DNA from: Eledone cirrhosa
Taxonomy: Eukaryota
Assembly: GCA_964016885.1 (NCBI GenBank)
Contig: OZ024757.1
Location: 6,696,001-6,760,000, forward strand
Length of the DNA: 64,000 nucleotides
Direction: 5' to 3'
The notes beneath the pieces are model-generated. The model did not search any database, was not told the origin of the DNA, and saw only the letters and a program-made list of their open reading frames with translations. The position numbers were made by a program, and so were the translations under genes. Below are positions 18,046 to 42,064 of this stretch, piece by piece (the first letter of the stretch is position 1; each line of letters starts with the position of its first letter).

Positions 18046-18084
18046 ACCTGGCCCTTACCCTAACCCCAACCTCTTTGGTTTTCG

Positions 18085-18922: not shown

Positions 18923-19000
18923 GAAGAGATATTGTCCATGGATATCGGGAATTTTACCCGCCCTAGATAGATAGATAGATAGGGATGTATGTATGTATGT

Positions 19001-19040
<40 letters not shown>

Positions 19041-19417
19041 GTATGTATCTTTCTCATTCTCTCTGTATGTATGTATGTATGTATATATATATAATTATAT
19101 ATTTATAGACATCCTGAAAGCTTTTTAAATGTCTGAGAGATTGGCTAAATATGTTTTGCAGGTATGACCAGTAAGAGAGAGGTAAGTTATTTCAAAACAA
19201 TTCTTTGACCATTATTTTAAGGTACTATCTCAGTGTATTTTTAAATTGACCTCTTGATAGGATGAAATGACCTGTATAATTTTTTTCATATTTAGATGGA
19301 ATAGAAGAAAAACAAGAAAAATGAAATGAATTCAAACAGAAAATATACACCAATGCCAATGGAGGTATGATTTCAGTTTAATCTTAACCTAATGACCACT
19401 TTACAGAGTGTACTGGA

Positions 19418-19496
<79 letters not shown>

Positions 19497-19949
19497 AGGA
19501 AGCTCCAACCGTTAAGGTTGTCTTTCCATTTATTAATATATTGTGTATTTACTCCACTAAACTGTTGAGTGCTTTATATCAGTTATAAAAAAATTTCAGC
19601 TTGTTGAATCCCAAAATAGTTGTTGAAACAGCCACAGCTCAGCCGTCGGGGTCCTGAATATTTATCATATATATATACGTATGAGTGTGTGTGTTTTGAG
19701 AATTAATAATTATATAAACAAGTTTGTAATGAACAATTTATTTCTTATCAAAACTGTATAAACATGATATTATTTACAGTAAGAATAACAATAATAATGA
19801 TGGTTTCTAGTAAAGGTGGAAGGCCAGTAATTTGGGGGAGGGGAAAGTTGCTTAAATCGAAGAGAGAAAGAAAGAAGAAACAGAACGGGAAGGAGAGGGG
19901 ATGGCAAGAGGTCCGGTGTCGCAGGAGAGAGGGGAGGGTGGTTGAGCTT

Positions 19950-20440
19950 TGAGTCTAGGGCAAGAGGGCAGAAATGCTGCGCCCCACGGATAAGACGGCA
20001 AAAATATTCTCGCGGACGATGGCCAGAGATACCCAATGCAACAACCACCCAACCTCGCGGTGTTCCCTCCTCAGATGGGCTGCTGACTCTCCGATCTTTT
20101 GGAGGAGCTCGGCAGTACAAGGTCCAAGTACTCCTGGGGTCTCGACGTTGACTGGTGCAGAGAGGAAGTGGCCGGACAATCCTCGGTATTTGTTTATTTT
20201 ACGTTCTTCTGCGAGGTGGGCTGCGATGCCGGGGTTTGTGACCGAAACGACTTGGAAACGAAGTTGTAGGCGGAGATTGTGTCGTAGCTGGTGGTGTCCC
20301 AGATGAGGGACCTACGTCCTTCGAATGGGAAGAGAGTGATTCCGTCGGGGCGCTTGCCATCTCCGGGACCTGTTGGCCCCAGTTGTGATGGGAAGCCAGC
20401 TGCGTCCAGGCTTCTTCTCAATATGTCGTTGACAACGACG
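19950..20440 (-). mobile_element. CRE-like non-LTR retrotransposon 3' fragment (restriction-like endonuclease)
   Basis: Minus-strand peptides GKRPDGITLFPF...LIWDTT and VETPGVLG...IG...RE...VSLAIVREN match the RLE motif pattern of CRE-type elements; frameshifted. Confidence 0.7.
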
Positions 20441-20987
20441 TGTATCTATTCAATAATTATTTGAATATTGAAATTTTAGGTTTAACTACCTTTTAAACCA
20501 AATACATTAAGAAAGGCATGACCAACACCACATCATTTTTATTTCTATTTTGAAAGTAGGTTTATAAGTATTAAATTTCAGTAGATTCTTATATCCTTCA
20601 TGGTGGTCTGGTGGGAGATACGAGAGATGGTGGAGGTTCTGGTCTGGGGTTCAATCCTGCTCAGGAGATACTCTAAGGGGGTTCATACTAAACTTCTTCA
20701 GTGTTTCTTATCTCTAGAGACAAATATATATACATAAGGTAATCTGGTAAAGTTGTTAGAACATCACATAGAATTCTTTGTAGTATTTTTTCCAGTTCTT
20801 CAATCTGAGTTCAACTTTACTTTTCTTCCATTCGGGGTTGATAATAACGTACCAGTCAAATACTAGGGGTTAATTCTTCCTCTATATCTCTTTCTCACTC
20901 TCTGTCTGTTTTATTAAGACCTGGAGAGGTGATGTACTCTACCAGGTTTTATAATGAGTGATGGGGTCATACCTGCCTGCTACACCT

Positions 20988-21522
20988 CTGTGTACTAAGT
21001 GTAGCATATTATATCCTTGTTCAGGGCCTTCCTGACATTACTGTGTACTAAGGGTAGCATTTTATATCCTTGTTCAGGGCCATCTTAACATTGCTGTGTA
21101 CTAAGTGTAGCATATTATATCCTTGTTCGGGGCCTTCCTGACATTAGTGTGTACTGAGTGTAGATTTTAACATCCTTGTTCTGGGCCTTCCTAACATTAC
21201 TGTGTACTGAGTGTAGATTTTAACATCTTTGTTCAGGGCCTTCCTAACATTGCTGTGTACTAGGTGTAGCATATTATATCCTTGTTCAGGGCCCTCCTGA
21301 CATTACTGTGTACTAAGTGTAGATTTTGATATCCTTGTTCAGGGCCATCCTAACATTACTGTGTACTAAGAGTAGCATTATATATCCTTGTTCAGGGCCT
21401 TCCTAACATTACTGTGTACTAAATGTAGATTTGGATATCCTTGTTCAGAGCCTTCCTTACATTACTGTGTACTAAGTGTAGCATTTCATATACTTGTTCT
21501 GGGCCTTCCTAACGTTACTGTG
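20988..21522. repeat. 53-bp minisatellite, ~10 copies
   Basis: CTGTGTACTAAGTGTAG...ATCCTTGTTCAGGGCCTTCCTAACATTA recurs at 20988, 21041, 21094 and onward. Confidence 0.9.
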
Positions 21523-21529
21523 GAAATAG

Positions 21530-22310
21530 TAGTTTATATCCAATATGTAATATAGATATGGATTCTACAGGACTAAAACTCATTAATATGAGGGGTATTA
21601 GTAGATTATATGCCATATTTAATAGAGAAATGGCTTCTACAAGACTAAAACTCATTAATATGAGGGGTATTACAGTTTATATGCCATATTTAATACAGAA
21701 ATGGCTTCTAAAGGACTAGAACTCTTTAAATTGAATAAAATAGTAGTATATATCCTATGTTTAATACAGAAATGCCTTCTAAAGGACTCATTAATATGAG
21801 GGTATTAGTAGATTATATAACATATTTAATACAGAAATGGCTTTTAAATTCAGGGACTCGTTAATTTGATGGAAATAGTAGTGTCTATGCAATATTTAAT
21901 ACAGAAATAGCTTCTACAGGACTAAAACTAATTAATATGAGGGGTATTAGTAGTATATGTGCCATATTTAATACAGAGATGGCTTCTAAATGGAGGTATC
22001 TCATTAATTCGATTGAAATGGTAGTGTATATGCAATATTTAATACAGAAATAGCTTCTACAAGAATAAAACTCATTAATATGAAGGTTATTATTACATTA
22101 TATGCCATATTTAATACAGAAATCGGTTCTAAAGGACTAGAACTCTTTAATTCAAATCAAATAGTAGTATAAAGCAATATTTACTACAGAAATGGCTTCT
22201 ACAAGACTAAAAATCCTTAATATGAGGGGTATTGTTAGATTATATACCATATTTAATACAGAAATGGCTTCTAAATGAAGAAATCTCTTTAATTCGATAG
22301 TAATAGTAAT
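21530..22310. repeat. ~70-bp AT-rich minisatellite, ~11 diverged copies
   Basis: Recurrent ATATTTAATACAGAAATGGCTTCTA...CTCATTAATATGAGGGGTATT. Confidence 0.85.
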
Positions 22311-23309
22311 AATAATAATAGTAATAGTAATAATACAGCCAATTTTCCACGCAATACTTTTAGTTAGCACCCCGAACGCATAATTGGGAATATAATCACT
22401 TATTTCCTAATGTTTGTTGAGTGAGTTGGGAAAAAAAACTTGGGAAATATATTTTCAGGGTCTCAAAATCTTAAAGAGAAAAAAAAGTCCTGTGGAAGGT
22501 AGCAAAACAATTAGGAAGAAAATGGTTTGAAGTTGGTTGGTGAGTATAAGATTACAGTATCTTGTTGATTTCTATAAAGTTTACTTTTAACTGAATTGGT
22601 AAAAATGGATAAATTAGAAGACACAATATAATAACTAATATTGTCTTCTAAAACAGGGAATAAAAATATGTTGGTGTATTGGGGGGGGGGGGGGGGTAAA
22701 CATGTGAGTTAATGGGAATGTTTTTGTTTGTTTTTATTGAAACATATTCAATCTACAGATAGGTTGTTATAGTTATTTAGTCTCGGGTCTGCCATTATCT
22801 GCAGATTTATAATTGAGGGGTGTTCCAGGTGTGACCACCCTACATTATTCCTAGAGATTGTTACTCCTTCATTCTTCAGTCATCTTGGTCTTCTTATGAG
22901 ATGGTGGTGTAGTCTTATTTATTGTTAAGGTTATGGTCTTCCTTTGTCCACACTCTCTATCTATCTATCTATCTATCTATCAAAGGCTTCCTTCTCTGGA
23001 AAAAGATGATTTAATATTCACAACCATCTGTCTAATTGTTTTCTGATGAGAATAAAGTTAATCTTGCTTGTATGTCTACCTGATCAAATGACTGGCTGAT
23101 ATCTTGAAGTCATTTACACCACAGAACTGTAGGAGTCTTGATCCCTCAAGCCATACCTCTAGCCATCATGTACTCCAAAAGAGTCTCACCTTGGTGCTAC
23201 TCAACATGTCCATTAAATTTAGCAGCAAGGATGCCCTCTTCTTAGTGAGAGACAACTACAAGAGAGGTTCTTAGAGAAGAATAAGCCACTATAGTTAACT
23301 TTTGTTGAC

Positions 23310-24010
23310 ATAGAGAACCCCGATCTGTCATCTGGTGGTCCTTAAGGAAACTAGGTGTAGGGGAATGGCTTGTGAGGACAGTGCAAGCTATGTACAAGGG
23401 TGCTGTCAGTAAAGTGAGAGGAGGAATTCCAGAAACAAAGTAGGTGTACATCAGGGTTCGGTCCTCAGTCCGCTCTTGTTCATTATAGTCCTCCCTCCCT
23501 CCCTCCCTCCCTCCCTCCAAGCCATAACAGAGGAGGAGTAGTTTAAGACTGGATGCCCATGGGAACTTCTCTATGCTGACGATCTGGTTCTTATAGCAGA
23601 ATCAGTAGAGGAGCTAGCTAGAGAATAAATTCTGGCTATGGAAACAGCAGTAGTTGGAATCAAGAAGACTGAGAGTGAACCTAGCTAAGACAAAAGTGTT
23701 TATAAGTAGAAGAGAGGACAAAACTCTGATTCTGTCAGGGAAATGGCCATGTTCGATATGTAGGAAAGGAGTTGGCATAAATTCTATGAAATGTAGTACG
23801 CAATGCAGATCTTGGCTACACAAGAGATGTAGTGGGATAGCAGGAAAACTGACTGACAGGTAGGGAGAAATACGTATGCAGTAGATGTACAGGGAAATTT
23901 GACAGAGATTGCAGTGATAGACACATTTTTCAAATGCAGGTGGGATCTATAGAGGGAGTTGATAGCTTCTGATACCTAGGTGATCAGATTAGTAAGGGAG
24001 GAGGGTGATA
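23310..24010 (+). mobile_element. Degraded RTE RT fragment (duplicate at ~36070-36770)
   Basis: HQGSVLSP, GCPWELLYADD and GKWPCSICRKGVG motifs with stops and frameshifts. Confidence 0.85.
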
Positions 24011-25124
24011 TAAAATATATTGTTATCATGACTGTCTTTATTATTTAAATTACCTCTGTCTATTTACAGATTTTACAGAGTGTACTGGGTGCTTTTATGA
24101 TGGGAGCAGCAACTCTATACGATTTTACAGAGTGTACTTGGTGCTTTTATCATGGCACATGGCAGCAGCAGCAGCAGCAACTACGATTTTACAGAGTGTA
24201 CTTGGTGCTTTTTACTCTGACATCAGCACTGAGGAAGTTGTCATATTTTCAGCTAAATTAATGAGTAGAAAAACCAAGTTTCTGCTACAAAAAATTCTCA
24301 GATTCAAGGGAGACATTCAGTTTAAGTATGGTATACTGTCACTAAGGCAGCAAATTGGCAGAGTCGCTAGAATATCAGATAGCATTCTTTACATTATTTG
24401 TTTCAGCTCTCTGTTCTCTCAATTCAAATCCTGCTCAGGTCAACTTTGCCTTTCATCCATACAAAATAGATTAATAAAAGTACCAGTGTATTACTGGGGT
24501 CAATTCTTCTTCTAACTCTTCTGCACTTCCATTCTCTCACTCTCTCTCTCTCTCTCTCTATGCTTCTTTAGAACACATCTGCTGTATTCAGACCTGGAGC
24601 GGAGATGGGCTCCACCAAGTTTTAAAAATTGCCCTTTAAGCGCTGTATGTCAATATGGTGCCCCTATGATTCCCTCCCTCAGGAGTTATGGGACCATAGA
24701 TACTGTCAATTGTAAAGAATAACAGAGATATTCAGTGCTAGTGTGGTGTTCTGTCAGTTGTGGAGATTGATGAATCTAAACAGAAATATCAACAGCACTT
24801 TTCATTTCTGAGTAACACATTTGTTACCAAGTGCTGCATGGCTGGAATGAAAATCAGTGCTGTGAAAACCAAGACATTCATCCTCTCAAGGAAGCTTGTG
24901 CAGTGCACTCTACATGTAAATGGAGTCCCACTGAAGCAGGTAGAAAAGTTCATGTATCTCGAAGCTGTGTTCACGAGTGATGACAGAGACGGCAAAGGCA
25001 CAACACACAACAGAAGAAAAGAACAATGACAATTATTATTATTATTATTATTATTATTATTTGTTTTATTAGTTTTATTATAATAAAAATTGTGCTGTTA
25101 GTTTGCTTGCTATACCATCATGTA

Positions 25125-25211
25125 CCCTAACCCTAAACCTAACCCCAACTCCAACTCTGACCCTAAACCTAACCCCAACCCCAACCCTAACCCTAACCCT
25201 AACCCTAACCC
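25125..25211. repeat. Interstitial telomeric tract (CCCTAA)n with variants; duplicate at ~37915-38001
   Basis: Perfect CCCTAA repeats next to the spacer repeat, degenerate copies further left. Confidence 0.9.
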
Positions 25212-25790
25212 ACGATAGAAGACGTTCGTTACCGCTGGAGCAACGCAAATTACTCCTCGGTTGACGCCAAAAACGAACGCCTTCTCGACGGCTAGCCGCA
25301 TTTCGTGATCCGCCTTTCGATTGCGCTTCCGTCGCGGAAAAAGAATTGCCTTTATAGGCCGCCGCCGCCCGACCGGACCCACGATAGAAGACGTTCGTTA
25401 CCGCTGGAGCAACGCAAATTACTCCTCGGTTGACGCCAAAAACGAACGCCTTCTCGACGGCTAGCCGCATTTCGTGATCCGCCTTTCGATTGCGCTTCCG
25501 TCGCGGAAAAAGAATTGCCTTTATAGGCCGCCGCCGCCCGACCGGACCCACGATAGAAGACGTTCGTTACCGCTGGAGCAACGCAAATTACTCCTCGGTT
25601 GACGCCAAAAACGAACGCCTTCTCGACGGCTAGCCGCATTTCGTGATCCGCCTTTCGATTGCGCTTCCGTCGCGGAAAAAGAATTGCCTTTATAGGCCGC
25701 CGCCGCCGCCCGACCGGACCCACGATAGAAGACGTTCTTTACCGCTGGAGCAACGCAAATTACTCCTCGGTTGACGCCAAAAACGAACGC
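25208..25790 (+). repeat. 169-172-bp tandem repeats, probably rDNA intergenic-spacer subrepeats (3.5 copies; 3 more at ~37998-38487)
   Basis: Period 169/169/172, CpG-rich, lying ~360 bp upstream of the 18S 5' end. The IGS/ETS identity is inferred from position. Confidence 0.7.
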
Positions 25791-26151
25791 CTTCCGGTTC
25801 GGGCGACGTAAAAGTCTGTAGCCTTTTCGCCGATCCTCGACGATTATCCGCCTTCCGAACAACCGCCTTTCCGCCGTCACAGCAGTAGGTACTCGTCCGT
25901 CGTAATAGCCGTCATTTTAATGCAGGAGAAACGCCTAAATGCACTGCGATTGACGACGATCTACGACGCGCTTACTCTTCCTTGCTGCGACGAAGGTTTC
26001 GTTCGGCTTTTCGTCGTGGACCCGGTCAGGTCATGCCGCTGATCTCGCGTTGCGTCGTTACCGCTGGAGCAACGCAAATTACTCCTCGTTTAACGCCAAC
26101 ATCGAACGCGCTTCGGTTCTCGGTCGTCGTTGTTTTGTTTCGTGCGGAAGA

Positions 26152-26340
26152 TACCTGGGTGATCCTGCCAGTAGTCATATGCTTGTCTCAAAGCTTAAGC
26201 CATGCAAGTGGAAGTTCATGCCGTAAACGAAAATGGTGAAACCGCGAATGGCTCAGGAACCGGATCTAATCCTCGGGACCGTATTCCTCACCGCGAGGAG
26301 AGGATAACTGTGGCAATTCTAGAGCTAATACATGCAATTG
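26152..26340 (+). rRNA. 18S: 18S rRNA 5' fragment (~190 nt, pseudogenic)
   Basis: TACCTGGGTGATCCTGCCAGTAGTCATATGCTTGTCTCAAAG.TTAAGCCATGCA...GAAACCGCGAATGGCTCA...GGATAACTGTGGCAATTCTAGAGCTAATACATGC is the conserved eukaryotic SSU 5' end. Confidence 0.93.
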
Positions 26341-29300
26341 AGATCGGAGAGGGAGCGATCCGTCTGCTTGATTCCGATAACGAACGAGACATTCGTATCC
26401 GAAAGAACGTTTGTCTGGAAACTGGTGCAGTCAGTGAGTCGAAAAAAAAATATCTCGGTGGTAGTAGCAAATATTCGAACGAGACATTCGTATGCGAAAG
26501 AACGTTTGTCGGTGGTAGTAGCAAATATTCGAACGAGACATTCGTATGCGAAAGAACGTTTGTCTGGAAGTGGCGATCCATGCCCGGTGGATAGTTGGTT
26601 CCGGGTTTTACTATGATTGTTGCAAAACAGAAACTTAAAGGGATTGACAGAATTTGCGATTCCGGAGAGGGGGCGATCCGTCTGCTTGATTCCGATAACG
26701 AACGAGACATTCGTATCCGAAAGAACGTTTGTCTGGAAACTGGTGAGTCAGTGAGTCGAAAAAAAAATATCTCGGTGGTAGTAGCAAATATTCGTATGCG
26801 AAAGAAAAGATCTCGGTGGTAGTAGCAAATATTCGAACGAGACATTCGTAGGCGAAAGAAAAATATCTCGGTGGTAGTAGCAAATATTCGAACGAGACAT
26901 TCGTATTCGAAAGAACGTTTGTCTGGAAGTTGCGATCCATGCCCGGTGGATAGTTGGTTCCGGGCTTTACTATGATTGTTGCAAAACAGAAACTTAAAGG
27001 GATTGACAGAATTTGCGATTCCGGAGAGGGGGCGATCCGTCTGCTTGATTTCGATAACGAACGAGACATTCGTATCCGAAAGAACGTTTGTCTGGAAACT
27101 GGTGAGTCAGTGAGTCGAAAAAAAAAATATCTCGGTGGTAGTAGCAAATATTCGAACGAGACATTCGTATGCGAAAGAACGTTTGTCGGTGGTAGTAGCA
27201 AATATTCGAACGAGACATTCGTATGCGAAAGAACGTTTGTCGGTGGTAGTAGCAAATATTCGAACGAGACATTCGTATGCGAAAGAACGTTTGTCTGGAA
27301 GTGGCGATCCATGCCCGGTGGATAGTTGGTTCCGGGTTTTACTATGATTGTTGCAAAACAGAAACTTAAAGGGATTGACAGAATTTGCGATTCCAGAGAG
27401 AGGGCGATCCGTCTGCTTGATTCCGATAACGAACGAGACATTCGTATCCGAAAGAACGTTTGTCTGGAAACTGGTGAGTCAGTGAGTCGAAAAAAAAATA
27501 TCTCGGTGGTAGTAGCAAATATTCGAACGAGACATTCGTATGCGAAAGAACGTTTGTCGGTGGTAGTAGCAAATATTCGAACGAGACATTCGTATGCGAA
27601 AGAACGTTTGTCTGGAAGTGGCGATCCATGCTCGGTGGATAGTTGGTTCCGGGTTTTACTATGATTGTTGCAAAACAGAAACTTAAAGGGATTGACAGAA
27701 TTTGCGATTCCGGAGAGGGGGCGATCCGTCTGCTTGATTCCGATAACGAACGAGACATTCGTATCCGAAAGAACGTTTGTCTGGAAACTGGTGAGTGAGT
27801 GAGTCGAAAAAAAAATATCTCGGTGGTAGTAGCAAATATTCGAACGAGACATTCGTATGCGAAAGAAAAATATCTCGGTGGTAGTAGCAAATATTCGAAC
27901 GAGACATTCGTATGCGAAAGAACGTTTGTCTGGAAGTGGCGATCCATGCCCGGTGGATAGTTGGTTCCGGGTTTTACTATGATTGTTGCAAAACAGAAAC
28001 TTAAAGGGATTGACAGAATTTGCGATTCCGGAGAGGGGGCGATCCGTCTGCTTGATTCCGATAACGAACGAGACATTCGTATCCGAAAGAACGTTTGTCT
28101 GGAAACTGGTGAGTCAGTGAGTCGAAAAAAAAATATCTCGGTGGTAGTAGCAAATATTCGAACGAGACATTCGTATGCGAAAGAACGTTTGTCGGTGGTA
28201 GTAGCAAATATTCGAACGAGACATTCGTATGCGAAAGAACGTTTGTCTGGAAGTGGCGATCCATGCCCGGTGGATAGTTGGTTCCGGGTTTTACTATGAT
28301 TGTTGCAAAACAGAAACTTAAAGGGATTGACAGAATTTGCCATTCCGGAGAGGGGGCGATCCGTCTGCTTGATTCCGATAACGAACGAGACATTCGTATC
28401 CGAAAGAACGTTTGTCTGGAAACTGGTGAGTCAGTGAGTCGAAAAAAAAATATCTCGGTGGTAGTAGCAAATATTCGTATGCGAAAGAAAAGATCTCGGT
28501 GGTAGTAGCAAATATTCGAACGAGACATTCGTAGGCGAAAGAAAAATATCTCGGTGGTAGTAGCAAATATTCGAACGAGACATTCGTATGCGAAAGAACG
28601 TTTGTCTGGAAGTGGCGATCCATGCCCGGTGGATAGTTGGTTCCGGGTTTTACTATGATTGTTGCAAAACAGAAACTTAAAGGGATTGACAGAATTTGCG
28701 ATTCCGGAGAGGGGGCGATCCGTCTGCTTGATTCCGATAACGAACGAGACATTCGTATCCGAAAGAACGTTTGTCTGGAAACTGGTGAGTCAGTGAGTCG
28801 AAAAAAAAATATCTCGGTGGTAGTAGCAAATATTCGTATGCGAAAGAAAAGATCTCGGTGGTAGTAGCAAATATTCGAACGAGACATTCGTAGGCGAAAG
28901 AAAAATATCTCGGTGGTAGTAGCAAATATTCGAACGAGACATTCGTATTCGAAAGAACGTTTGTCTGGAAGTTGCGATCCATGCCCGGTGGATAGTTGGT
29001 TCCGGGCTTTACTATGATTGTTGCAAAACAGAAACTTAAAGGGATTGACAGAATTTGCGATTCCGGAGAGGGGGCGATCCGTCTGCTTGATTCCGATAAC
29101 GAACGAGACATTCGTATCCGAAAGAACGTTTGTGTGGAAACTGGTGAGTCAGTGAGTCGAAAAAAAAAATATCTCGGTGGTAGTAGCAAATATTCGAACG
29201 AGACATTCGTATGCGAAAGAACGTTTGTCGGTGGTAGTAGCAAATATTCGAACGAGACATTCGTATGCGAAAGAACGTTTGTCGGTGGTAGTAGCAAATA

Positions 29301-32300
29301 TTCGAACGAGACATTCGTATGCGAAAGAACGTTTGTCTGGAAGTGGCGATCCATGCCCGGTGGATAGTTGGTTCCGGGTTTTACTATGATTGTTGCAAAA
29401 CAGAAACTTAAAGGGATTGACAGAATTTGCGATTCCGGAGAGAGGGCGATCCGTCTGCTTGATTCCGATAACGAACGAGACATTCGTATCCGAAAGAACG
29501 TTTGTCTGGAAACTGGTGAGTCAGTGAGTCGAAAAAAAAATATCTCGGTGGTAGTAGCAAATATTCGAACGAGACATTCGTATGCGAAAGAAAAATATCT
29601 CGGTGGTAGTAGCAAATATTCGAACGAGACATTCGTATGCGAAAGAACGTTTGTCTGGAAGTGGCGATCCATGCCCGGTGGATAGTTGGTTCCGGGTTTT
29701 ACTATGATTGTTGCAAAACAGAAACTTAAAGGGATTGACAGAATTTGCCATTCCGGAGAGGGGGCGATCCGTCTGCTTGATTCCGATAACGAACGAGACA
29801 TTCGTATCCGAAAGAACGTTTGTCTGGAAACTGGTGAGTCAGTGAGTCGAAAAAAAAATATCTCGGTGGTAGTAGCAAATATTCGTATGCGAAAGAAAAG
29901 ATCTCGGTGGTAGTAGCAAATATTCGAACGAGACATTCGTAGGCGAAAGAAAAATATCTCGGTGGTAGTAGCAAATATTCGAACGAGACATTCGTATTCG
30001 AAAGAACGTTTGTCTGGAAGTTGCGATCCATGCCCGGTGGATAGTTGGTTCCGGGCTTTACTATGATTGTTGCAAAACAGAAACTTAAAGGGATTGACAG
30101 AATTTGCGATTCCGGAGAGGGGGCGATCCGTCTGCTTGATTTCGATAACGAACGAGACATTCGTATCCGAAAGAACGTTTGTCTTGAAACTGGTGAGTCA
30201 GTGAGTCGAAAAAAAAAATATCTCGGTGGTAGTAGCAAATATTCGAACGAGACATTCGTATGCGAAAGAACGTTTGTCGGTGGTAGTAGCAAATATTCGA
30301 ACGAGACATTCGTATGCGAAAGAACGTTTGTCGGTGGTAGTAGCAAATATTCGAACGAGACATTCGTATGCGAAAGAACGTTTGTCTGGAAGTGGCGATC
30401 CATGCCCGGTGGATAGTTGGTTCCGGGTTTTACTATGATTGTTGCAAAACAGAAACTTAAAGGGATTGACAGAATTTGCGATTCCAGAGAGAGGGCGATC
30501 CGTCTGCTTGATTCCGATAACGAACGAGACATTCGTATCCGAAAGAACGTTTGTCTGGAAACTGGTGAGTCAGTGAGTCGAAAAAAAAAATATCTCGGTG
30601 GTAGTAGCAAATATTCGAACGAGACATTCGTATGCGAAAGAACGTTTGTCGGTGGTAGTAGCAAATATTCGAACGAGACATTCGTATGCGAAAGAACGTT
30701 TGTCTGGAAGTGGCGATCCATGCTCGGTGGATAGTTGGTTCCGGGTTTTACTATGATTGTTGCAAAACAGAAACTTAAAGGGATTGACAGAATTTGCGAT
30801 TCCGGAGAGGGGGCGATCCGTCTGCTTGATTCCGATAACGAACGAGACATTCGTATCCGAAAGAACGTTTGTCTGGAAACTGGTGAGTCAGTGAGTCGAA
30901 AAAAAAATATCTCGGTGGTAGTAGCAAATATTCGAACGAGACATTCGTATGCGAAAGAAAAATATCTCGGTGGTAGTAGCAAATATTCGAACGAGACATT
31001 CGTATGCGAAAGAACGTTTGTCTGGAAGTGGCGATCCATGCCCGGTGGATAGTTGGTTCCGGGTTTTACTATGATTGTTGCAAAACAGAAACTTAAAGGG
31101 ATTGACAGAATTTGCGATTCCGGAGAGGGGGCGATCCGTCTGCTTGATTCCGATAACGAACGAGACATTCGTATCCGAAAGAACGTTTGTCTGGAAACTG
31201 GTGAGTCAGTGAGTCGAAAAAAAAATATCTCGGTGGTAGTAGCAAATATTCGAACGAGACATTCGTATGCGAAAGAACGTTTGTCGGTGGTAGTAGCAAA
31301 TATTCGAACGAGACATTCGTATGCGAAAGAACGTTTGTCTGGAAGTGGCGATCCATGCCCGGTGGATAGTTGGTTCCGGGTTTTACTATGATTGTTGCAA
31401 AACAGAAACTTAAAGGGATTGACAGAATTTGCCATTCCGGAGAGGGGGCGATCCGTCTGCTTGATTCCGATAACGAACGAGACATTCGTATCCGAAAGAA
31501 CGTTTGTCTGGAAACTGGTGAGTCAGTGAGTCGAAAAAAAAATATCTCGGTGGTAGTAGCAAATATTCGTATGCGAAAGAAAAGATCTCGGTGGTAGTAG
31601 CAAATATTCGAACGAGACATTCGTAGGCGAAAGAAAAATATCTCGGTGGTAGTAGCAAATATTCGAACGAGACATTCGTATTCGAAAGAACGTTTGTCTG
31701 GAAGTTGCGATCCATGCCCGGTGGATAGTTGGTTCCGGGCTTTACTATGATTGTTGCAAAACAGAAACTTAAAGGGATTGACAGAATTTGCGATTCCGGA
31801 GAGGGGGCGATCCGTCTGCTTGATTTCGATAACGAACGAGACATTCGTATCCGAAAGAACGTTTGTCTGGAAACTGGTGAGTCAGTGAGTCGAAAAAAAA
31901 AATATCTCGGTGGTAGTAGCAAATATTCGAACGAGACATTCGTATGCGAAAGAACGTTTGTCGGTGGTAGTAGCAAATATTCGAACGAGACATTCGTATG
32001 CGAAAGAACGTTTGTCGGTGGTAGTAGCAAATATTCGAACGAGACATTCGTATGCGAAAGAACGTTTGTCTGGAAGTGGCGATCCATGCCCGGTGGATAG
32101 TTGGTTCCGGGTTTTACTATGATTGTTGCAAAACAGAAACTTAAAGGGATTGACAGAATTTGCGATTCCAGAGAGAGGGCGATCCGTCTGCTTGATTCCG
32201 ATAACGAACGAGACATTCGTATCCGAAAGAACGTTTGTCTGGAAACTGGTGAGTCAGTGAGTCGAAAAAAAAATATCTCGGTGGTAGTAGCAAATATTCG

Positions 32301-34950
32301 AACGAGACATTCGTATGCGAAAGAACGTTTGTCGGTGGTAGTAGCAAATATTCGAACGAGACATTCGTATGCGAAAGAACGTTTGTCTGGAAGTGGCGAT
32401 CCATGCTCGGTGGATAGTTGGTTCCGGGTTTTACTATGATTGTTGCAAAACAGAAACTTAAAGGGATTGACAGAATTTGCGATTCCGGAGAGGGGGCGAT
32501 CCGTCTGCTTGATTCCGATAACGAACGAGACATTCGTATCCGAAAGAACGTTTGTCTGGAAACTGGTGAGTCAGTGAGTCGAAAAAAAAATATCTCGGTG
32601 GTAGTAGCAAATATTCGAACGAGACATTCGTATGCGAAAGAACGTTTGTCGGTGGTAGTAGCAAATATTCGAACGAGACATTCGTATGCGAAAGAACGTT
32701 TGTCTGGAAGTGGCGATCCATGCCCGGTGGATAGTTGGTTCCGGGTTTTACTATGATTGTTGCAAAACAGAAACTTAAAGGGATTGACAGAATTTGCGAT
32801 TCCGGAGAGGGGGCGATCCGTCTGCTTGATTCCGATAACGAACGAGACATTCGTATCCGAAAGAACGTTTGTCTGGAAACTGGTGAGTCAGTGAGTCGAA
32901 AAAAAAATATCTCGGTGGTAGTAGCAAATATTCGAACGAGACATTCGTATGCGAAAGAACGTTTGTCGGTGGTAGTAGCAAATATTCGAACGAGACATTC
33001 GTATGCGAAAGAACGTTTGTCGGTGGTAGTAGCAAATATTCGAACGAGACATTCGTATGCGAAAGAACGTTTGTCGGTGGTAGTAGCAAATATTCGAACG
33101 AGACATTCGTATGCGAAAGAACGTTTGTCTGGAAACTGGTGAGTCAGTGAGTCGAAAAAAAAATATCTCGGTGGTAGTAGCAAATATTCGAACGAGACAT
33201 TCGTATGCGAAAGAACGTTTGTCGGTGGTAGTAGCAAATATTCGAACGAGACATTCGTATGCGAAAGAACGTTTGTCTGGAAGTGGCGATCCATGCCCGG
33301 TGGATAGTTGGTTCCGGGTTTTACTATGATTGTTGCAAAACAGAAACTTAAAGGGATTGACAGAATTTGCGATTCCGGAGAGGGGGCGATCTGTCTGCTT
33401 GATTCCGATAACGAACGAGACATTCGTATCCGAAAGAACGTTTGTCTGGAAACTGGTGCAGTCAGTGAGTCGAAAAAAAAATATCTCGGTGGTAGTAGCA
33501 AATATTCGAACGAGACATTCGTATGCGAAAGAACGTTTGTCGGTGGTAGTAGCAAATATTCGAACGAGACATTCGTATGCGAAAGAACGTTTGTCTGGAA
33601 GTGGCGATCCATGCCCGGTGGATAGTTGGTTCCGGGTTTTACTATGATTGTTGCAAAACAGAAACTTAAAGGGATTGACAGAATTTGCGATTCCGGAGAG
33701 GGGGCGATCCGTCTGCTTGATTCCGATAACGAACGAGACATTCGTATCCGAAAGAACGTTTGTCTGGAAACTGGTGAGTCAGTGAGTCGAAAAAAAAATA
33801 TCTCGGTGGTAGTAGCAAATATTCGAACGAGACATTCGTATGCGAAAGAACGTTTGTCGGTGGTAGTAGCAAATATTCGAACGAGACATTCGTATGCGAA
33901 AGAACGTTTGTCGGTGGTAGTAGCAAATATTCGAACGAGACATTTGTATGCGAAAGAACGTTTGTCGGTGGTAGTAGCAAATATTCGAACGAGACATTCG
34001 TATGCGAAAGAACGTTTGTCGGTGGTAGTAGCAAATATTCGAACGAGACATTCGTATGCGAAAGAACGTTTGTCGGTGGTAGTAGCAAATATTCGAACGA
34101 GACATTCGTATGCGAAAGAACGTTTGTCGGTGGTAGTAGCAAATATTCGAACGAGACATTCGTATGCGAAAGAACGTTTGTCTGGAAGTGGCGATCCATG
34201 CCCGGTGGATAGTTGGTTCCGGGTTTTACTATGATTGTTGCAAAACAGAAACTTAAAGGGATTGACAGAATTTGCGATTCCGGAGAGAGGGCGATCCGTC
34301 TGCTTGATTCCGATAACGAACGAGACATTCGTATCCGAAAGAACGTTTGTCTGGAAACTGGTGAGTCAGTGAGTCGAAAAAAAAATATCTCGGTGGTAGT
34401 AGCAAATATTCGAACGAGACATTCGTATGCGAAAGAACGTTTGTCGGTGGTAGTAGCAAATATTCGAACGAGACATTCGTATGCGAAAGAACGTTTGTCT
34501 GGAAGTGGCGATCCATGCTCGGTGGATAGTTGGTTCCGGGTTTTACTATGATTGTTGCAAAACAGAAACTTAAAGGGATTGACAGAATTTGCGATTCCGG
34601 AGAGGGGGCGATCCGTCTGCTTGATTCCGATAACGAACGAGACATTCGTATCCGAAAGAACGTTTGTCTGGAAACTGGTGAGTCAGTGAGTCGAAAAAAA
34701 AATATCTCGGTGGTAGTAGCAAATATTCGTATGCGAAAGAAAAGATCTCGGTGGTAGTAGCAAATATTCGAACGAGACATTCGTATGCGAAAGAAAAATA
34801 TCTCGGTGGTAGTAGCAAATATTCGAACGAGACATTCGTATTCGAAAGAACGTTTGTCTGGAATTTGCGATCCATGCCCGGTGGATAGTTGGTTCCGGGC
34901 TTTACTATGATTGTTGCAAAACAGAAACTTAAAGGAATTGACAGAATTTT
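26341..34950 (+). repeat. rRNA-derived satellite: ~24 units of 317-587 bp containing a 54-bp subrepeat
   Basis: Unit starts at 26595, 26954, 27326, 27643, 27961 ... 34530, 34889. Each unit carries GAAACTTAAAGG.ATTGAC, GATTCCGGAGAGGG, TTCCGATAACGAACGAGAC (18S motifs) and GGTGGTAGTAGCAAATATTC (28S motif). Confidence 0.9.
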
Positions 34951-34959
34951 CGAATCGAC

Positions 34960-35230
34960 ATCAACTCGGCTACGGCTATCCCGTCGAGTACGAGAGTATC
35001 ACGGGATCAGAGCAACGGTTTGCTAGGCTGCCTCTGAGCGATAACGGCTGAACGCCTCCTCTTAGCCGGACCCGAGTTGTTTTTCGACAAGCGTCTCGAC
35101 CTTCTTAAGGCCCATGCCTTAGTTTGGCGATTGCCGTCCGTTCGCCGACGGCGGCAGCGTCAGCGGAAATGCCATTCTGTGACGACTACGACGATTCGTC
35201 GTCGTCCATTCGATTTACTGAAAGAGACTA
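34960..35230 (+). rRNA. 28S: Degenerate 28S rRNA 3'-end fragment
   Basis: AGTACGAGAG, CTGAACGCCTC...TTAG, CCATT...GACGACT and CGATTTACTGAAAG occur in the same order as motifs at the 3' end of eukaryotic LSU rRNA. Confidence 0.6.
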
Positions 35231-35245
35231 AAGTGATCAAATTGT

Positions 35246-37295
35246 GAAAAAAAAGTCCTGTGGAAGGTAGCAAAACAATTAGGAAGAAAATGGTTTGAAG
35301 TTGGTTGGTGAGTATAAGATTACAGTATCTTGTTGATTTCTATAAAGTTTACTTTTAACTGAATTGGTAAAAATGGATAAATTAGAAGACACAATATAAT
35401 AACTAATATTGTCTTCTAAAACAGGGAATAAAAATATGTTGGTGTATTGGGGGGGGGGGGGGGTAAACATGTGAGTTAATGGGAATGTTTTTGTTTGTTT
35501 TTATTGAAACATATTCAATCTACAGATAGGTTGTTATAGTTATTTAGTCTCGGGTCTGCCATTATCTGCAGATTTATAATTGAGGGGTGTTCCAGGTGTG
35601 ACCACCCTACATTATTCCTAGAGATTGTTACTCCTTCATTCTTCAGTCATCTTGGTCTTCTTATGAGATGGTGGTGTAGTCTTATTTATTGTTAAGGTTA
35701 TGGTCTTCCTTTGTCCACACTCTCTATCTATCTATCTATCTATCAAAGGCTTCCTTCTCTGGAAAAAGATGATTTAATATTCACAACCATCTGTCTAATT
35801 GTTTTCTGATGAGAATAAAGTTAATCTTGCTTGTATGTCTACCTGATCAAATGACTGGCTGATATCTTGAAGTCATTTACACCACAGAACTGTAGGAGTC
35901 TTGATCCCTCAAGCCATACCTCTAGCCATCATGTACTCCAAAAGAGTCTCACCTTGGTGCTACTCAACATGTCCATTAAATTTAGCAGCAAGGATGCCCT
36001 CTTCTTAGTGAGAGACAACTACAAGAGAGGTTCTTAGAGAAGAATAAGCCACTATAGTTAACTTTTGTTGACATAGAGAACCCCGATCTGTCATCTGGTG
36101 GTCCTTAAGGAAACTAGGTGTAGGGGAATGGCTTGTGAGGACAGTGCAAGCTATGTACAAGGGTGCTGTCAGTAAAGTGAGAGGAGGAATTCCAGAAACA
36201 AAGTAGGTGTACATCAGGGTTCAGTCCTCAGTCCGCTCTTGTTCATTATAGTCCTCCCTCCCTCCCTCCCTCCCTCCAAGCCATAACAGAGGAGGAGTAG
36301 TTTAAGACTGGATGCCCATGGGAACTTCTCTATGCTGACGATCTGGTTCTTATAGCAGAATCAGTAGAGGAGCTAGCTAGAGAATAAATTCTGGCTATGG
36401 AAACAGCAGTAGTTGGAATCAAGAAGACTGAGAGTGAACCTAGCTAAGACAAAAGTGTTTATAAGTAGAAGAGAGGACAAAACTCTGATTCTGTCAGGGA
36501 AATGGCCATGTTCGATATGTAGGAAAGGAGTTGGCATAAATTCTATGAAATGTAGTACGCAATGCAGATCTTGGCTACACAAGAGATGTAGTGGGATAGC
36601 AGGAAAACTGACTGACAGGTAGGGAGAAATACGTATGCAGTAGATGTACAGGGAAATTTGACAGAGATTGCAGTGATAGACACATTTTTCAAATGCAGGT
36701 GGGATCTATAGAGGGAGTTGATAGCTTCTGATACCTAGGTGATCAGATTAGTAAGGGAGGAGGGTGATATAAAATATATTGTTATCATGACTGTCTTTAT
36801 TATTTAAATTACCTCTGTCTATTTACAGATTTTACAGAGTGTACTGGGTGCTTTTATGATGGGAGCAGCAACTCTATACGATTTTACAGAGTGTACTTGG
36901 TGCTTTTATCATGGCACATGGCAGCAGCAGCAGCAGCAACTACGATTTTACAGAGTGTACTTGGTGCTTTTTACTCTGACATCAGCACTGAGGAAGTTGT
37001 CATATTTTCAGCTAAATTAATGAGTAGAAAAACCAAGTTTCTGCTACAAAAAATTCTCAGATTCAAGGGAGACATTCAGTTTAAGTATGGTATACTGTCA
37101 CTAAGGCAGCAAATTGGCAGAGTCGCTAGAATATCAGATAGCATTCTTTACATTATTTGTTTCAGCTCTCTGTTCTCTCAATTCAAATCCTGCTCAGGTC
37201 AACTTTGCCTTTCATCCATACAAAATAGATTAATAAAAGTACCAGTGTATTACTGGGGTCAATTCTTCTTCTAACTCTTCTGCACTTCCATTCTC

Positions 37296-37354
<59 letters not shown>

Positions 37355-38487
37355 GCTTCTTTAGAACACATCTGCTGTATTCAGACATGGAGCGGAGATG
37401 GGCTCCACCAAGTTTTAAAAATTGCCCTTTAAGCGCTGTATGTCAATATGGTGCCCCTATGATTCCCTCCCTCAGGAGTTATGGGACCATAGATACTGTC
37501 AATTGTAAAGAATAACAGAGATATTCAGTGCTAGTGTGGTGTTCTGTCAGTTGTGGAGATTGATGAATCTAAACAGAAATATCAACAGCACTTTTCATTT
37601 CTGAGTAACACATTTGTTACCAAGTGCTGCATGGCTGGAATGAAAATCAGTGCTGTGAAAACCAAGACATTCATCCTCTCAAGGAAGCTTGTGCAGTGCA
37701 CTCTACATGTAAATGGAGTCCCACTGAAGCAGGTAGAAAAGTTCATGTATCTCGAAGCTGTGTTCACGAGTGATGACAGAGACGGCAAAGGCACAACACA
37801 CAACAGAAGAAAAGAACAATGACAATTATTATTATTATTATTATTATTATTTGTTTTATTAGTTTTATTATAATAAAAATTGTGCTGTTAGTTTGCTTGC
37901 TATACCATCATGTACCCTAACCCTAAACCTAACCCCAACTCCAACTCTGACCCTAAACCTAACCCCAACCCCAACCCTAACCCTAACCCTAACCCTAACC
38001 CACGATAGAAGACGTTCGTTACCGCTGGAGCAACGCAAATTACTCCTCGGTTGACGCCAAAAACGAACGCCTTCTCGACGGCTAGCCGCATTTCGTGATC
38101 CGCCTTTCGATTGCGCTTCCGTCGCGGAAAAAGAATTGCCTTTATAGGCCGCCGCCGCCCGACCGGACCCACGATAGAAGACGTTCGTTACCGCTGGAGC
38201 AACGCAAATTACTCCTCGGTTGACGCCAAAAACGAACGCCTTCTCGACGGCTAGCCGCATTTCGTGATCCGCCTTTCGATTGCGCTTCCGTCGCGGAAAA
38301 AGAATTGCCTTTATAGGCCGCCGCCGCCGCCCGACCGGACCCACGATAGAAGACGTTCGTTACCGCTGGAGCAACGCAAATTACTCCTCGGTTGACGCCA
38401 AAAACGAACGCCTTCTCGACGGCTAGCCGCATTTCGTGATCCGCCTTTCGATTGCGCTTCCGTCGCGGAAAAAGAATTGCCTTTATA
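35246..38487 (+). repeat. Segmental duplication copy 2, truncated inside the spacer repeats by the palindromic satellite
   Basis: Offset ~12.77 kb from copy 1; the differences I could see are mostly microsatellite length. Confidence 0.95.
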
Positions 38488-41400
38488 TCTCCGTAACATC
38501 AAGAGTTATGGCTGTGGAGGCACACCTAGTCAAACGTAAACAATGTCTGGAGCGTTTACACTTCGCGATTTTGTTTACGTTTGACTAGGTGTGCCTCCAC
38601 AGCCACAACTCTTGATGTTACGGAGATATCTTGCTGAAATGCATACCGCGCACAGCCAATGAGTGTCCGCACATGTACTTCTAATTACACATCGATCCGT
38701 CAACATCCGGCCGGCCCACGATCGACGCACAGGGCCGGATGGCCCGTTTTCAGTGAATTTTCACCGGAATCGATCTGTAATTACTGGTACATGTGCGGAG
38801 ACACATTTGCTGTGTGTGGTGTGATTTTCAAGAAAAACTGCCCATGCTAAATGAGGAAGCTGAAGTCCGCCGGCGAATGGTGTGCTTCGAAGAAAACTAA
38901 TTCGAAAATGACCGTTTGCAGGCGGAGTAACCTTTTCGATCGTGGGCCAGCCGCCCGTGGTGGGATCCATCTGTAATTACTGGTACATGTGCGGACATAC
39001 ATTTGCTGTGTGTGGTGTGATTTTCAAGAAGAACTGCCCATGCTAAATGAGGAAGCTGAAGTCCGCCGGCGAATGGTGTGCTTCGAAGAAAACTAATTCG
39101 AAAATGACCGTTTGCAGGCGGGGTAACCTTTTCGATCGTGGGCCAGCCGCCCGTGGTGGGATACATCTGTAATTACTGGTACATGTGCGGACACACATTT
39201 GCTGTGTGTGGTGTGATTTTCGAGAAAGACTGCCCATGCTAAATGAGGAAGCTGAAGTCCGCCGGCGAATGGTGTGCTTCGAAGAAAACTAATTCGAAAA
39301 TGACTATTTGCCGGCGGAATCACCTTTTCGGTCCTGGTCCGGCCGGATCTTGCCGGATCGATCGGAAATTTGTGGACCATGTTCGGAAGGCCATTGTGCA
39401 TGTGTGGTGAAAAAAATTTGTGTCGAAATCTTCTCGGAAAATAACGGATCGCCGGCGGAGATTGCCATTTCGATCGTGGGCCGGCCGGATCTTGTCGGAT
39501 CGATTCGGACATATGTGCATCGTGTTCGCAAGGCCCTTGTCTATGTGTGGTGTGATTTTCATAAAGAAATTCCGAAAAACCCAGTTTTAAATCTGATTTC
39601 GCCAAAGAATTTTGGCTATCAGATCGGATTGAAAGGTATGGTTTCAGGTCGATCTGAAAGTCTAAAATGGAATTCACTCGGTTAGCTAACTTTTGATATA
39701 TCGGAGATATCTTTCTGAAAATCACACCACACACTCCCAATGAGTGTCTGCACATGTACCAGTAATTACAGATGGATCCCACCACGGGCGGCCGGCCCAC
39801 GATCGAAAAGGTTACTCCGAAGCACACCATTCGCCGGCGGAATTCATTTAGCATGGGCAGTTTTTCTCGAAAATCACACCACACACAGCCAATGAGTGTC
39901 CGCACATGTACCAGTAATTACAGATGGATCCCACCACGGGCGGCTGGCCCACGATCGAAAAGGTTACTCCGCCTGCAAACGGTCATTTTCGAATTCGTTT
40001 TCTTCGAAGCACACGATTCGCCGGCGGACTTCAGCTGCCTCATTTAGCATGGGCAGTTTTTCTCGAAAATCATACCACACACAGCAAATGTGTGTCCGCA
40101 CATGTACCAGTAATTACAGATCGATTCCGGTGAAAATTCACTGAAAACGGGCCATTCGGCCCTGTGCGTCGATCGTGGGCCGGCCGGATGTTGACGGATC
40201 GATGTGTAATTAGAAGTACATGTGCGGACACTCATTGGCTGTGCGTGGTATGCATTTCATCAAGATATCTCCGTAACATCAAGAGTTATGGCTGTGGAGG
40301 CACACCTAGTCAAACGTAAACAAGCTCTGGAGCGTATACGCTTCGCGATTTTGTTTACGTTTGACTAGGTGTGCCTCCACAGCCACAACTCTTGATGTTA
40401 CGGAGATATCTTGCTGAAATCCATACCACGCACAGCCAATGAGTGTCCGCACATGTACTTCTAATTACACATCGATCCGTCAACATCCGGCCGGCCCACG
40501 ATCGACGCACAGGGCCGGATGGCCCGTTTTCAGTGAATTTTCACCGGAATCGATCTGTAATTACTGGTACATGTGCGGACACACATTTGCTGTGTGTGGT
40601 GTGATTTTCACGAAAAACTGCCCATGCTAAATGAGGAAGCTGAAGTCCGCCGGCGAATGGTGTGCTTCGAAGAAAACTAATTCGAAAATGACCGTTTGCA
40701 GGCGGAGTAACCTTTTCGATCGTGGGCCAGCCGCCCGTGGTGGGATACATCTGTAATTACTGGTACATGTGCGGACACACATTTGCTGTGTGTGGTGTGA
40801 TTTTCGAGAAAGACTGCCCATGCTAAATGAGGAAGCTGAAGTCCGCCGGCGAATGGTGTGCTTCGAAGAAAACTAATTCGAAAATGACTATTTGCCGGCG
40901 GAATCACCTTTTCGGTCCTGGTCCGGCCGGATCTTGCCGGATCGATCGGAAATTTGTGGACCATGTTCGGAAGGCCATTGTGCATGTGTGGTGAAAAAAA
41001 TTTGTGTCGAAATCTTCTCGGAAAATAACGGATCGCCGGCGGAGATTGCCATTTCGATCGTGGGCCGGCCGGATCTTGTCGGATCGATTCGGACATATGT
41101 GCATCGTGTTCGCAAGGCCCTTGTCTATGTGTGGTGTGATTTTCATAAAGGAATTCCGAAAAACCCAGTTTTAAATCTGATTTCGCCAAAGAATTTTGGC
41201 TATCAGATCGGGTTGAAAGGTATGGTTTCAGGTCGATCTGAAAGTCTAAAATGGAATTCACTCGGTTAGCTAACTTTTGATATATCGGAGATATCTTTCT
41301 GAAAATCACACCACACACTCCCAATGAGTGTCTGCACATGTACCAGTAATTACAGATGGATCCCACCACGGGCGGCCGGCCCACGATCGAAAAGGTTACT

Positions 41401-42064
41401 CCGAAGCACACCATTCGCCGGCGGAATTCATTTAGCATGGGCAGTTTTTCTCGAAAATCACACCACACACAGCCAATGAGTGTCCGCACATGTACCAGTA
41501 ATTACAGATGGATCCCACCACGGGCGGCTGGCCCACGATCGAAAAGGTTACTCCGCCTGCAAACGGTCATTTTCGAATTAGTTTTCTTCGAAGCACACCA
41601 TTCGCCGGCGGACTTCAGCTTCCTCATTTAGCATGGGCAGTTTTTCTTGAAAATCACACCACACACAGCAAATATGTGTCCGCACATGTACCAGTAATTA
41701 CAGATCGATTCCGGTGAAAATTCACCGAAAACAGGCCATTCGGCCCTGTGCGTCGATCGTGGGCCGGCCGGATGTTGACGGATCGATGTGTAATTAGAAG
41801 TACATGTGCGGACACTCATTGGCTGTGCGTGGTATGCATTTCAGCAAGATATCTCCGTAACATCAAGAGTTATGGCTGTGGAGGCACACCTAGTCAAACG
41901 TAAACAAGGTCTGGAGCGTTTACGCTTCGCGATTTTGTTTACGTTTGAATAGGTGTGCCTCCACAGCGACAACTCTTGATGTTACGGAGATATCTTGCTG
42001 AAATTCATACCACGCACAGCCAATGAGTGTCCGCACATGTACCTGTAATTACATATCGATCCGA
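38485..42064. repeat. Palindromic (foldback-like) satellite array 1, periods 1780 and 1584 bp
   Basis: Hairpin centres CTAGTCAAACGTAAACAA-loop-TTGTTTACGTTTGACTAG at about 38555, 40335 and 41920; 196-bp subunits occur in both orientations. Confidence 0.93.

What the first reader, a model, noticed from the sequence alone, without database searches (positions are those of the whole stretch)
25208..35230. rDNA shell: spacer, ETS, 18S start and 28S end retained, with the satellite replacing the interior
Seen in order and on one strand: 169-bp repeats, ~360 bp ETS-like DNA, the first ~190 nt of 18S, the satellite, then 28S 3'-end motifs. Inference: this is a whole 45S unit with its interior replaced. 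If the upstream Pol I signals persist, it could yield a ~9-kb repetitive pseudo-pre-rRNA with many copies of conserved rRNA sites. Such an RNA might act as a decoy for snoRNAs or ribosomal proteins, a small-RNA source, or a nucleolar tether. Any function is speculative.
Basis: partly seen in the sequence, partly recalled or inferred. Interest (0 to 1): 0.75.

Follow-up and report, generated by a model that had tools for sequence, protein, structure and literature searches.

The report
Promoterless scrambled ribosomal-DNA satellite copy
This is a gutted copy of the animal's own ribosomal RNA gene unit whose middle is a repeat stitched from short out-of-order rRNA scraps; it is an outlying member of a family of about 60 assembled copies that lack the gene's probable start signal, so it is likely silent repeat DNA rather than a decoy RNA gene.

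Summary
The anatomy is real and host-derived. In order: 5'ETS pieces, 18S nt 1-190 (96% to the genome's own 18S), an 8.6-kb satellite, and a 28S 3' piece. The interior is not foreign: 260 of 318 bases of a monomer are sense pieces (18-62 nt) of host 18S, ITS1 and 28S, out of order. Several joins lie at 4-10-nt shared words. The 169-bp repeats come from downstream of the last putative Pol I start motif, and CCCTAA-type repeats stand where the promoter would be (61 exact junctions genome-wide). The window also lacks the last ~118 nt of 28S. The assembly holds 59 exact 18S-to-satellite junctions: 43 in a ~38-kb macro-repeat array on C28, 15 unplaced, and this lone C18 outlier. Array length runs from 0.7 to 19 kb, and the rRNA pieces are not measurably preserved. 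Best reading: an rDNA pseudogene, scrambled by microhomology-guided template switching and amplified as nested satellite, probably silent. One oddity remains: the pieces favour conserved rRNA core (p 0.01-0.04). Expression is untested. The scan found this family before on other DNA of this genome (four notes). New variant of a known kind.

The parts
25124..25211 (+). Degenerate CCCTAA (telomere-type) repeats fused directly to the ETS remnant, in place of the IGS and putative Pol I promoter
   Evidence: TRF period 6; the same junction is exact at 61 places; host promoter region has no match here
25208..25794 (+). 3.5 copies of a 169-172-bp repeat, a shortened and amplified host 5'ETS-side sub-repeat
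   Evidence: 88-97% to L029:5084-5470 and 5759-5829, downstream of the last start-like motif at L029:4904
25795..26151 (+). 5'ETS remnant; ~835 nt of host ETS (L029:6194-7030) missing
   Evidence: 88% to L029:5952-6194, 89% to 7030-7073
26152..26342 (+). 18S rRNA nt 1-~190, with a T>G change at nt 8 and two 2-nt indels
   Evidence: 95.9% to L029:7074-7264; alignment; Rfam RF01960 E 2.6e-8
26345..34945 (+). Mosaic satellite, monomer 317-372 bp with an inner 54-55-bp sub-repeat. Sense pieces in monomer order: 18S 575-592, 18S 2042-2080, ITS1 289-307, unassigned ~40 nt, [28S 2083-2121 + ITS1 copy] x2-7, 28S 1392-1413, 18S 1843-1900 (host numbering)
   Evidence: 260 of 318 nt assigned to host rDNA; long near-identical internal blocks, e.g. 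29228-31339 = 30912-33021 at 99.1%
34958..35227 (+). 28S 3' region (host nt ~4640-4985) with hairpin-sized deletions; lacks the last ~118 nt that C28 copies keep
35246..38487 (+). 99% duplicate of 22478-25694 (flank, CCCTAA repeats, 169-bp repeats). It cuts off the 28S tail and then runs into a 196-bp satellite
18087..18921 (+). Second, separately rearranged 5'ETS remnant in the same macro-repeat unit
   Evidence: 99.9% in C28 units
50302..50750 (+). 28S expansion-segment fragment (host nt ~460-895) followed by a G-rich 16-bp repeat; C28 units keep only its last ~205 nt
   Evidence: 90.9% over 460 nt
8034..64000 (+). Window part of a ~149-kb outlying (orphon) copy of macro-repeat DNA on C18, contig ~6.704-6.853 Mb; the left edge falls in LINE-like DNA
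   Evidence: 98-99% to C28 units, 89-95% at the left edge; right end at 6,853,339, no N in the stretches fetched

Best explanation
This is a promoterless rDNA pseudogene whose interior is a satellite built from short out-of-order pieces of the host's own 18S, ITS1 and 28S, likely made by microhomology-guided template switching on DNA and likely silent. Steps. (1, shown) One host unit lost the DNA upstream of the 5'ETS, which is now CCCTAA-type repeat, and took many deletions. (2, inferred) During repair or replication the copying strand hopped between short shared words in the same unit, leaving a ~320-bp mosaic between the 18S start and the 28S end. (3, shown as outcome; unequal exchange or slippage inferred) The mosaic, its 54-bp sub-repeat and the 169-bp ETS repeat each expanded in tandem, to 0.7-19 kb per copy. 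(4, shown) The whole shell with ~30 kb of LINE debris and other satellites became a ~38-kb macro-repeat of at least 59 copies. (5, inferred) One stretch was copied to C18, probably by ectopic exchange in a LINE, where a 3.2-kb duplication cut off the 28S end. It cannot make rRNA; any RNA would be read-through.
For: Host origin: the pieces carry this genome's own rRNA variants, and intact units exist on C12, C25, C4 and C6. ITS1, ETS and, in C28 copies, IGS pieces up to ~2.3 kb past the 28S end are included, which fits a DNA template better than mature rRNA. Shared words at joins: GGAGC (18S 581 piece to 18S 2042 piece), a 10-mer common to 18S 2071 and 28S 2107, TTCG (28S to ITS1 piece), and a TTGAC-containing word common to 18S ~1893 and ~1976. 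Promoter-like motif: 7 times in L029 and 11 times in L031, none in the window or in 120 kb of C28 units; the IGS bit in C28 tails stops ~90 nt short of a spacer copy of it. Same CCCTAA|ETS junction at 61 places, 18S|satellite at 59, satellite|28S at 61, monomer joint at 735. Array length 725-19,011, median 5,833 for 58 of 59 paired. Decay: 17 of 199 columns differ from host in the pieces; 2.3% substitutions in the 18S start and 8.7% in the 28S tail, plus 26-, 33- and 15-nt deletions. Variable sites in host-derived vs other monomer positions: 31 of 253 vs 12 of 53, p 0.08. 18 of 24 window monomer variants recur on C28.
Against: The promoter is placed by motif and position only; no start site was mapped. 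The pieces favour universally conserved rRNA core (mean core share 0.49 vs 0.17, p 0.012; without the piece used to fetch the references p 0.02; GC-matched p 0.04; six pieces only), which neutral DNA template switching does not predict. All pieces are sense, which also fits an RNA template. Some joins have 1-5 extra or ~20-40 unassigned bases and no shared word. No CpG-decay excess, so no sequence sign of methylation silencing (8 of 271 vs 10 of 361, p 1.0). Host-derived monomer sites vary somewhat less than the rest (p 0.08, partly alignment noise at the A-run). In run X1 shell-specific contigs have depth 4,062-4,107, against 4,145 and 4,350 for host-type rDNA contigs. This hints at a copy number near that of real rDNA, high for junk, though contig depth is not a copy number. 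The window keeps a longer 28S fragment at 50302 than C28 units do, so the direction C28-to-C18 is not certain.
Confidence: 0.7

Rival explanations
1. The mosaic was written from RNA: a non-LTR reverse transcriptase (R2 or another LINE) jumped between pre-rRNA fragments, the cDNA was integrated, and it was then amplified as above. Still non-functional, but a different birth.
For: All six assigned pieces are sense. Five of six are 18-39 nt, the size of RNA fragments. Pieces lean to conserved core. Hairpin-sized deletions in the tail. Some joins lack shared words. R2 RT jumps between RNA templates without sequence similarity (PMC12203849, passages). An insertion sits at the R2 target site of a host 28S copy (site recalled).
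Against: IGS pieces well past the 28S end and the joins at 5-10-nt shared words favour DNA. No poly(A) tail or target duplication was seen at the shell ends (by eye). An autonomous R2 was not searched for.
Confidence: 0.2
2. One reading: the shell is transcribed (by Pol I from a cryptic or ETS-internal signal, or by read-through) into a long repetitive RNA that acts as a decoy for snoRNPs or ribosomal proteins, a small-RNA source, or a nucleolar tether.
For: Uniform sense orientation; both rRNA ends kept in C28 copies; conserved-core bias; near-identity of the ends across copies (100% over 621 nt in 37 of 40 scored full-length places); contig depth like real rDNA in X1.
Against: Putative promoter absent. 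Array length varies 26-fold. Fixed changes lie inside core pieces (18S 1843-1900 piece 51 of 62 identical). Near-identity extends equally to LINE debris and flanks (98-99%), so it shows recent amplification, not selection.
Confidence: 0.1
3. Assembly or laboratory artefact, such as a concatemer of universal rRNA primer sites or a chimera.
For: Several pieces fall on sites used for universal primers (recalled, not tested). The C28 array is bounded by 200-N gaps on both sides.
Against: Pieces carry host-specific bases and an ITS1 piece. The joints are present in contigs of an independent read set, X1. The C18 copy is embedded gap-free in other DNA. Shared point variants occur across arrays.
Confidence: 0.02

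Closest known systems
rDNA-derived satellite of tomato (PMC2679016; abstract and outline read)
   Same: A satellite born from a decaying 45S unit by duplication and amplification of a sub-repeat
   Different: The tomato repeat is an IGS sub-repeat and rRNA coding sequence was eliminated; here the monomer is a shuffled patchwork of coding pieces plus ITS1, still framed by the 18S start and 28S end and nested in a ~38-kb macro-repeat
Amplified 45S rDNA pseudogenes (Cycas revoluta ~50% of copies; human 5%; PMC10462631, passages; PMC5381670, search listing only)
   Same: Non-functional rDNA units kept in many copies
   Different: As far as the passages say, those are mutated or degraded units; here the interior is reduced to a ~320-bp non-collinear mosaic and the copies are nearly identical
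rDNA pieces in mobile elements: SINE28, Pokey IGS repeats (PMC10946416, passages)
   Same: rRNA-gene or spacer fragments reused in a repeat family
   Different: This family is tandem, not dispersed (58 of 59 copies lie on C28 or unplaced contigs); no tail, target duplication or transposase was seen
Microhomology-mediated template switching (FoSTeS/MMBIR; recalled, search listing only)
   Same: Several short non-collinear segments joined at few-base shared words
   Different: Here all within one rDNA unit, all in the same orientation, and then amplified as a satellite; the mechanism is inferred from joints only

Membership tests
Functional 45S rDNA unit | Full 18S, 5.8S and 28S in order | tested here: not met
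   No Rfam match at gathering score in the window; only 18S 1-190 and a 28S 3' piece; no significant 5.8S piece
Functional 45S rDNA unit | Pol I promoter and IGS upstream of the ETS | tested here: not met
   Putative start motif and its IGS repeat absent upstream; the motif's role is inferred from PMC2590618
rDNA pseudogene | Descends from the host's own rDNA and is disabled | tested here: met
rDNA-derived satellite DNA | Head-to-tail monomer array homologous to rDNA, outside the functional array | tested here: met
rDNA-derived satellite DNA | Monomer from IGS sub-repeats, as in the tomato case | tested here: not met
   Monomer is 18S/ITS1/28S mosaic
rDNA-derived satellite DNA | Heterochromatic chromosomal block shown by FISH | not testable with these tools
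   The C28 array lies between scaffold gaps
rRNA-derived SINE (SINE28 type) | Dispersed copies with 3' tail and target-site duplications | tested here: not met
   Copies are tandem in macro-repeats; no tail at the shell end (by eye)
rRNA-mimic lncRNA or decoy | Transcribed across the joints | not testable with these tools

The most novel reading that the evidence does not exclude
A lineage-specific family about as numerous as the real rRNA genes is transcribed by read-through into RNA carrying hundreds of copies of conserved rRNA core sites, first stitched together by a template-jumping R2/LINE reverse transcriptase, and acts as a sponge or small-RNA source that tunes rRNA processing or rDNA silencing.
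Probability: 0.08. Interest if true: 0.8.

Novelty: new variant of a known kind. Interest (0 to 1): 0.4.

Why it matters
It is a well-preserved record of a satellite being born: the parent unit, the joints, three nested levels of amplification and an outlying copy can all be read in one genome. A monomer stitched from shuffled rRNA coding pieces did not turn up in my searches (four searches of an open-access library, so not proof of absence). In practice, hundreds of genomic copies of conserved 18S/28S words can distort rDNA FISH, rDNA copy-number estimates and rRNA read filtering in this animal. If it proves to be transcribed, the conserved-core bias would make an rRNA-decoy hypothesis directly testable.

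Tried and rejected
Expression: the run search listed 6 holders, none on record as RNA: no RNA holder listed, which is no evidence either way. Cross-species conservation: runs X4-X6 (organisms B-D) hold satellite pieces with 1 difference in 222-260 nt at low depth (8-470), while their deep 18S contigs run on into other sequence. I read this as trace DNA and do not count it as presence in other species. Single-copy depth calibration failed, because window 7040-10800 is multi-copy LINE-like DNA, so there is no absolute copy number. CpG-decay test: no excess. A 5.8S origin for the unassigned ~40 nt, guessed by eye, scored no better than reversed or antisense controls. Rfam E-value scan of the tail gave only three chance-level hits. 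The 39 ORFs of 80 aa or more over the array are repeat by-products and were not pursued. Telomerase healing as the source of the CCCTAA junction was considered, but such repeats occur at several other places in the window, so it is unsupported. The first conservation test (7 loci, p 0.006) was redone with per-position coverage over 39 loci and without the search motif; the weaker values are the ones reported. An Rfam scan of 13 loci failed with a tool error; the intact unit was annotated from 2 loci.
Full report
Observation. The window shows, on the + strand: CCCTAA-type repeats (25124-25211), 3.5 copies of a 169-bp repeat (25208-25794), ~360 bp of other GC-rich DNA, the start of 18S (26152-26342), a satellite (26345-34945) and a short 28S-like tail. 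Rfam finds nothing at gathering level in the window and a sub-threshold SSU match from 26155 (E 2.6e-8).

The parent. The window is G000:C18:6696001-6760000 in a 3.0-Gb genome. The long rRNAs and repeat types look octopod-like; this is recalled and echoed by earlier notes, not tested by a call. A 5.8S search found 29 matches (40 candidates scored). One unit on C12 was annotated: 18S L029:7074-9949, 5.8S L030:484-642, 28S L030:1271-7612. Against 13 fetched stretches from four chromosomes, the 169-bp repeats match DNA ~1.6-2 kb upstream of 18S at 88-97%. The ETS-like part matches at 88-91% with ~835 nt missing, the 18S start at 95.9%, and the tail matches the 28S 3' region up to ~118 nt before its end. 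So the shell is the host's own rDNA.

The promoter question. In intact units the motif TATTATATAGGG recurs every ~710 bp (7 times in L029, 11 in L031) and last occurs at L029:4904; the shell begins at the equivalent of L029:5125. The layout of spacer repeats each holding a TATATAGGG-like motif, a final start site, then an ETS with direct repeats is the one described for stick insects in PMC2590618 (passages); there too the start was not mapped. I therefore read the 169-bp repeats as 5'ETS-derived. The motif is absent from the window and from 120 kb of C28 units, and the only IGS piece in those units stops ~90 nt short of a spacer copy. The CCCTAA|ETS junction is exact at 61 places.

The satellite. 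One monomer has 6 exact matches of 14 nt or more to the host unit on the sense strand, 0 on the antisense strand and 0.02 on average in 60 shuffles. 260 of 318 bases are assigned. In monomer order: 18S 575-592, 18S 2042-2080, ITS1 289-307, ~40 unassigned nt, 28S 2083-2121 plus an ITS1 copy (the 54-55-bp sub-repeat, 2-7 times), 28S 1392-1413, 18S 1843-1900. The order is not collinear with the parent. Shared words lie at several joints: GGAGC; a 10-mer present at both 18S 2071 and 28S 2107; TTCG; and a TTGAC-containing word. Other joints have a few extra bases. The window array has 23-24 monomers, with long near-identical blocks such as 29228-31339 = 30912-33021 at 99.1%.

The family. The exact 18S|satellite joint occurs 59 times: 1 on C18 (this one), 43 on C28 and 15 on five unplaced contigs. 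The satellite|28S joint occurs 61 times and the monomer joint 735 times (first 100 places listed). A marker of intact 18S occurs 22 times (true rDNA arrays are probably under-assembled). On C28 the shell is part of a macro-repeat with median spacing 37.8 kb, and the satellite runs 725-19,011 bp, median 5,833, in 58 of 59 paired copies. The rest of the unit is LINE-like debris, other satellites and two more rDNA scraps. C28 copies keep the true 28S end and short IGS pieces. The C28 array is bounded by 200-N gaps at both ends, so its size and place are scaffold-dependent. In run X1, shell-specific contigs have depth 4,062-4,107 and host-type rDNA contigs 4,145 and 4,350. This hints at similar copy numbers, but depth is not a copy count and X1 may be the assembly's own sample.

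What is particular to this window. It is the only copy on another placed chromosome. Macro-repeat DNA starts near window 8034-9637, where identity to C28 rises from 89-95% to 98% inside LINE-like DNA. It ends at C18:6,853,339 after a ~106-kb block of 196-bp satellite, with no N in the stretches fetched. A 99% duplication (22478-25694 = 35246-38487) truncates the 28S tail. 18 of 24 monomer variants seen here recur in four C28 arrays. I infer an outlier made by ectopic exchange. One fact cuts the other way: the 28S fragment at 50302-50750 is longer than in the C28 units examined, so C18 may keep an older state there.

Signs of selection. The pieces differ from host rRNA at 17 of 199 columns, and the 18S 1843-1900 piece at 11 of 62. 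The 18S start has 4 substitutions in 177 columns and two indels; the C28 tail has 31 in 357 and deletions of 26, 33 and 15 nt. Variable sites among monomers: 31 of 253 host-derived vs 12 of 53 other, p 0.08. CpG transitions are not in excess. Against plain neutrality, the pieces fall in conserved rRNA core more than chance. Using 39 metagenomic eukaryote rDNA loci (those of 2.5 kb or more with a match, among the loci), the mean core share is 0.49 vs 0.17 (p 0.012). It is p 0.02 without the piece used to fetch them and p 0.04 when GC-matched. This rests on six pieces and on what can be recognised.

Mechanism. Best: DNA-level template switching at short shared words in a broken rDNA unit (inferred), then tandem expansion at three scales and macro-repeat amplification (outcome shown), with no promoter and probably no function (0.7). 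Rival: cDNA made by a template-jumping RT. R2 RT does this without sequence similarity (PMC12203849, passages), and a host 28S carries an insertion at the R2 site. IGS content and shared-word joints argue against it (0.2). Rival: functional decoy RNA (0.1). Artefact (0.02).

Known kin. The tomato rDNA-derived satellite comes from IGS and loses coding sequence (PMC2679016, abstract). Amplified rDNA pseudogenes are known (PMC10462631, passages), as are rRNA pieces in SINE28 and Pokey (PMC10946416, passages). Searches gave no shuffled coding-piece satellite and none in cephalopods; only titles and abstract starts were seen there, and no supplements were read. Four earlier notes of this scan describe the same family on other pieces of this genome. 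I had reached the same reading before seeing them, and they are not independent support.

Verdict. Real, host-derived, unusual in build, most likely inert. New variant of rDNA-derived satellite or pseudogene; interest 0.4.

Noticed in passing
L030:4970-6208 (G000:C12 28S): A ~1.24-kb insertion in an otherwise intact 28S at what I recall as the R2 target site; looks like a non-autonomous R2 (also noted earlier as e1-8667571).
   Followed up: no
window 38485-42063 and 51000-64000, on to C18:6,853,339: 196-bp satellite arranged in alternating inverted blocks, ~106 kb long on C18 and 5-7 kb in each C28 unit.
   Followed up: partly
L029:600-4920, L031, L033: Host IGS is an array of ~710-bp repeats, each with a TATTATATAGGG motif: candidate spacer promoters.
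   Followed up: partly
window 939-2336: 84-bp tandem array that looks like a C2H2 zinc-finger coding exon (identity recalled), just outside the macro-repeat DNA.
   Followed up: no
window 18087, 25124 and 50750: Each of the three rDNA scraps abuts a telomere-like or G-rich short repeat at one end; similar repeats also occur elsewhere in the window.
   Followed up: no
G000 C1, C2, C3, C4, C6, C10, C12, C25: Intact-type 18S markers (22) and 5.8S matches (29) are scattered singly or in twos and threes over many chromosomes rather than in one array.
   Followed up: no
window 11738-17904: Three tandem copies of a ~1.9-kb segment at 98-99% identity inside the macro-repeat unit.
   Followed up: no
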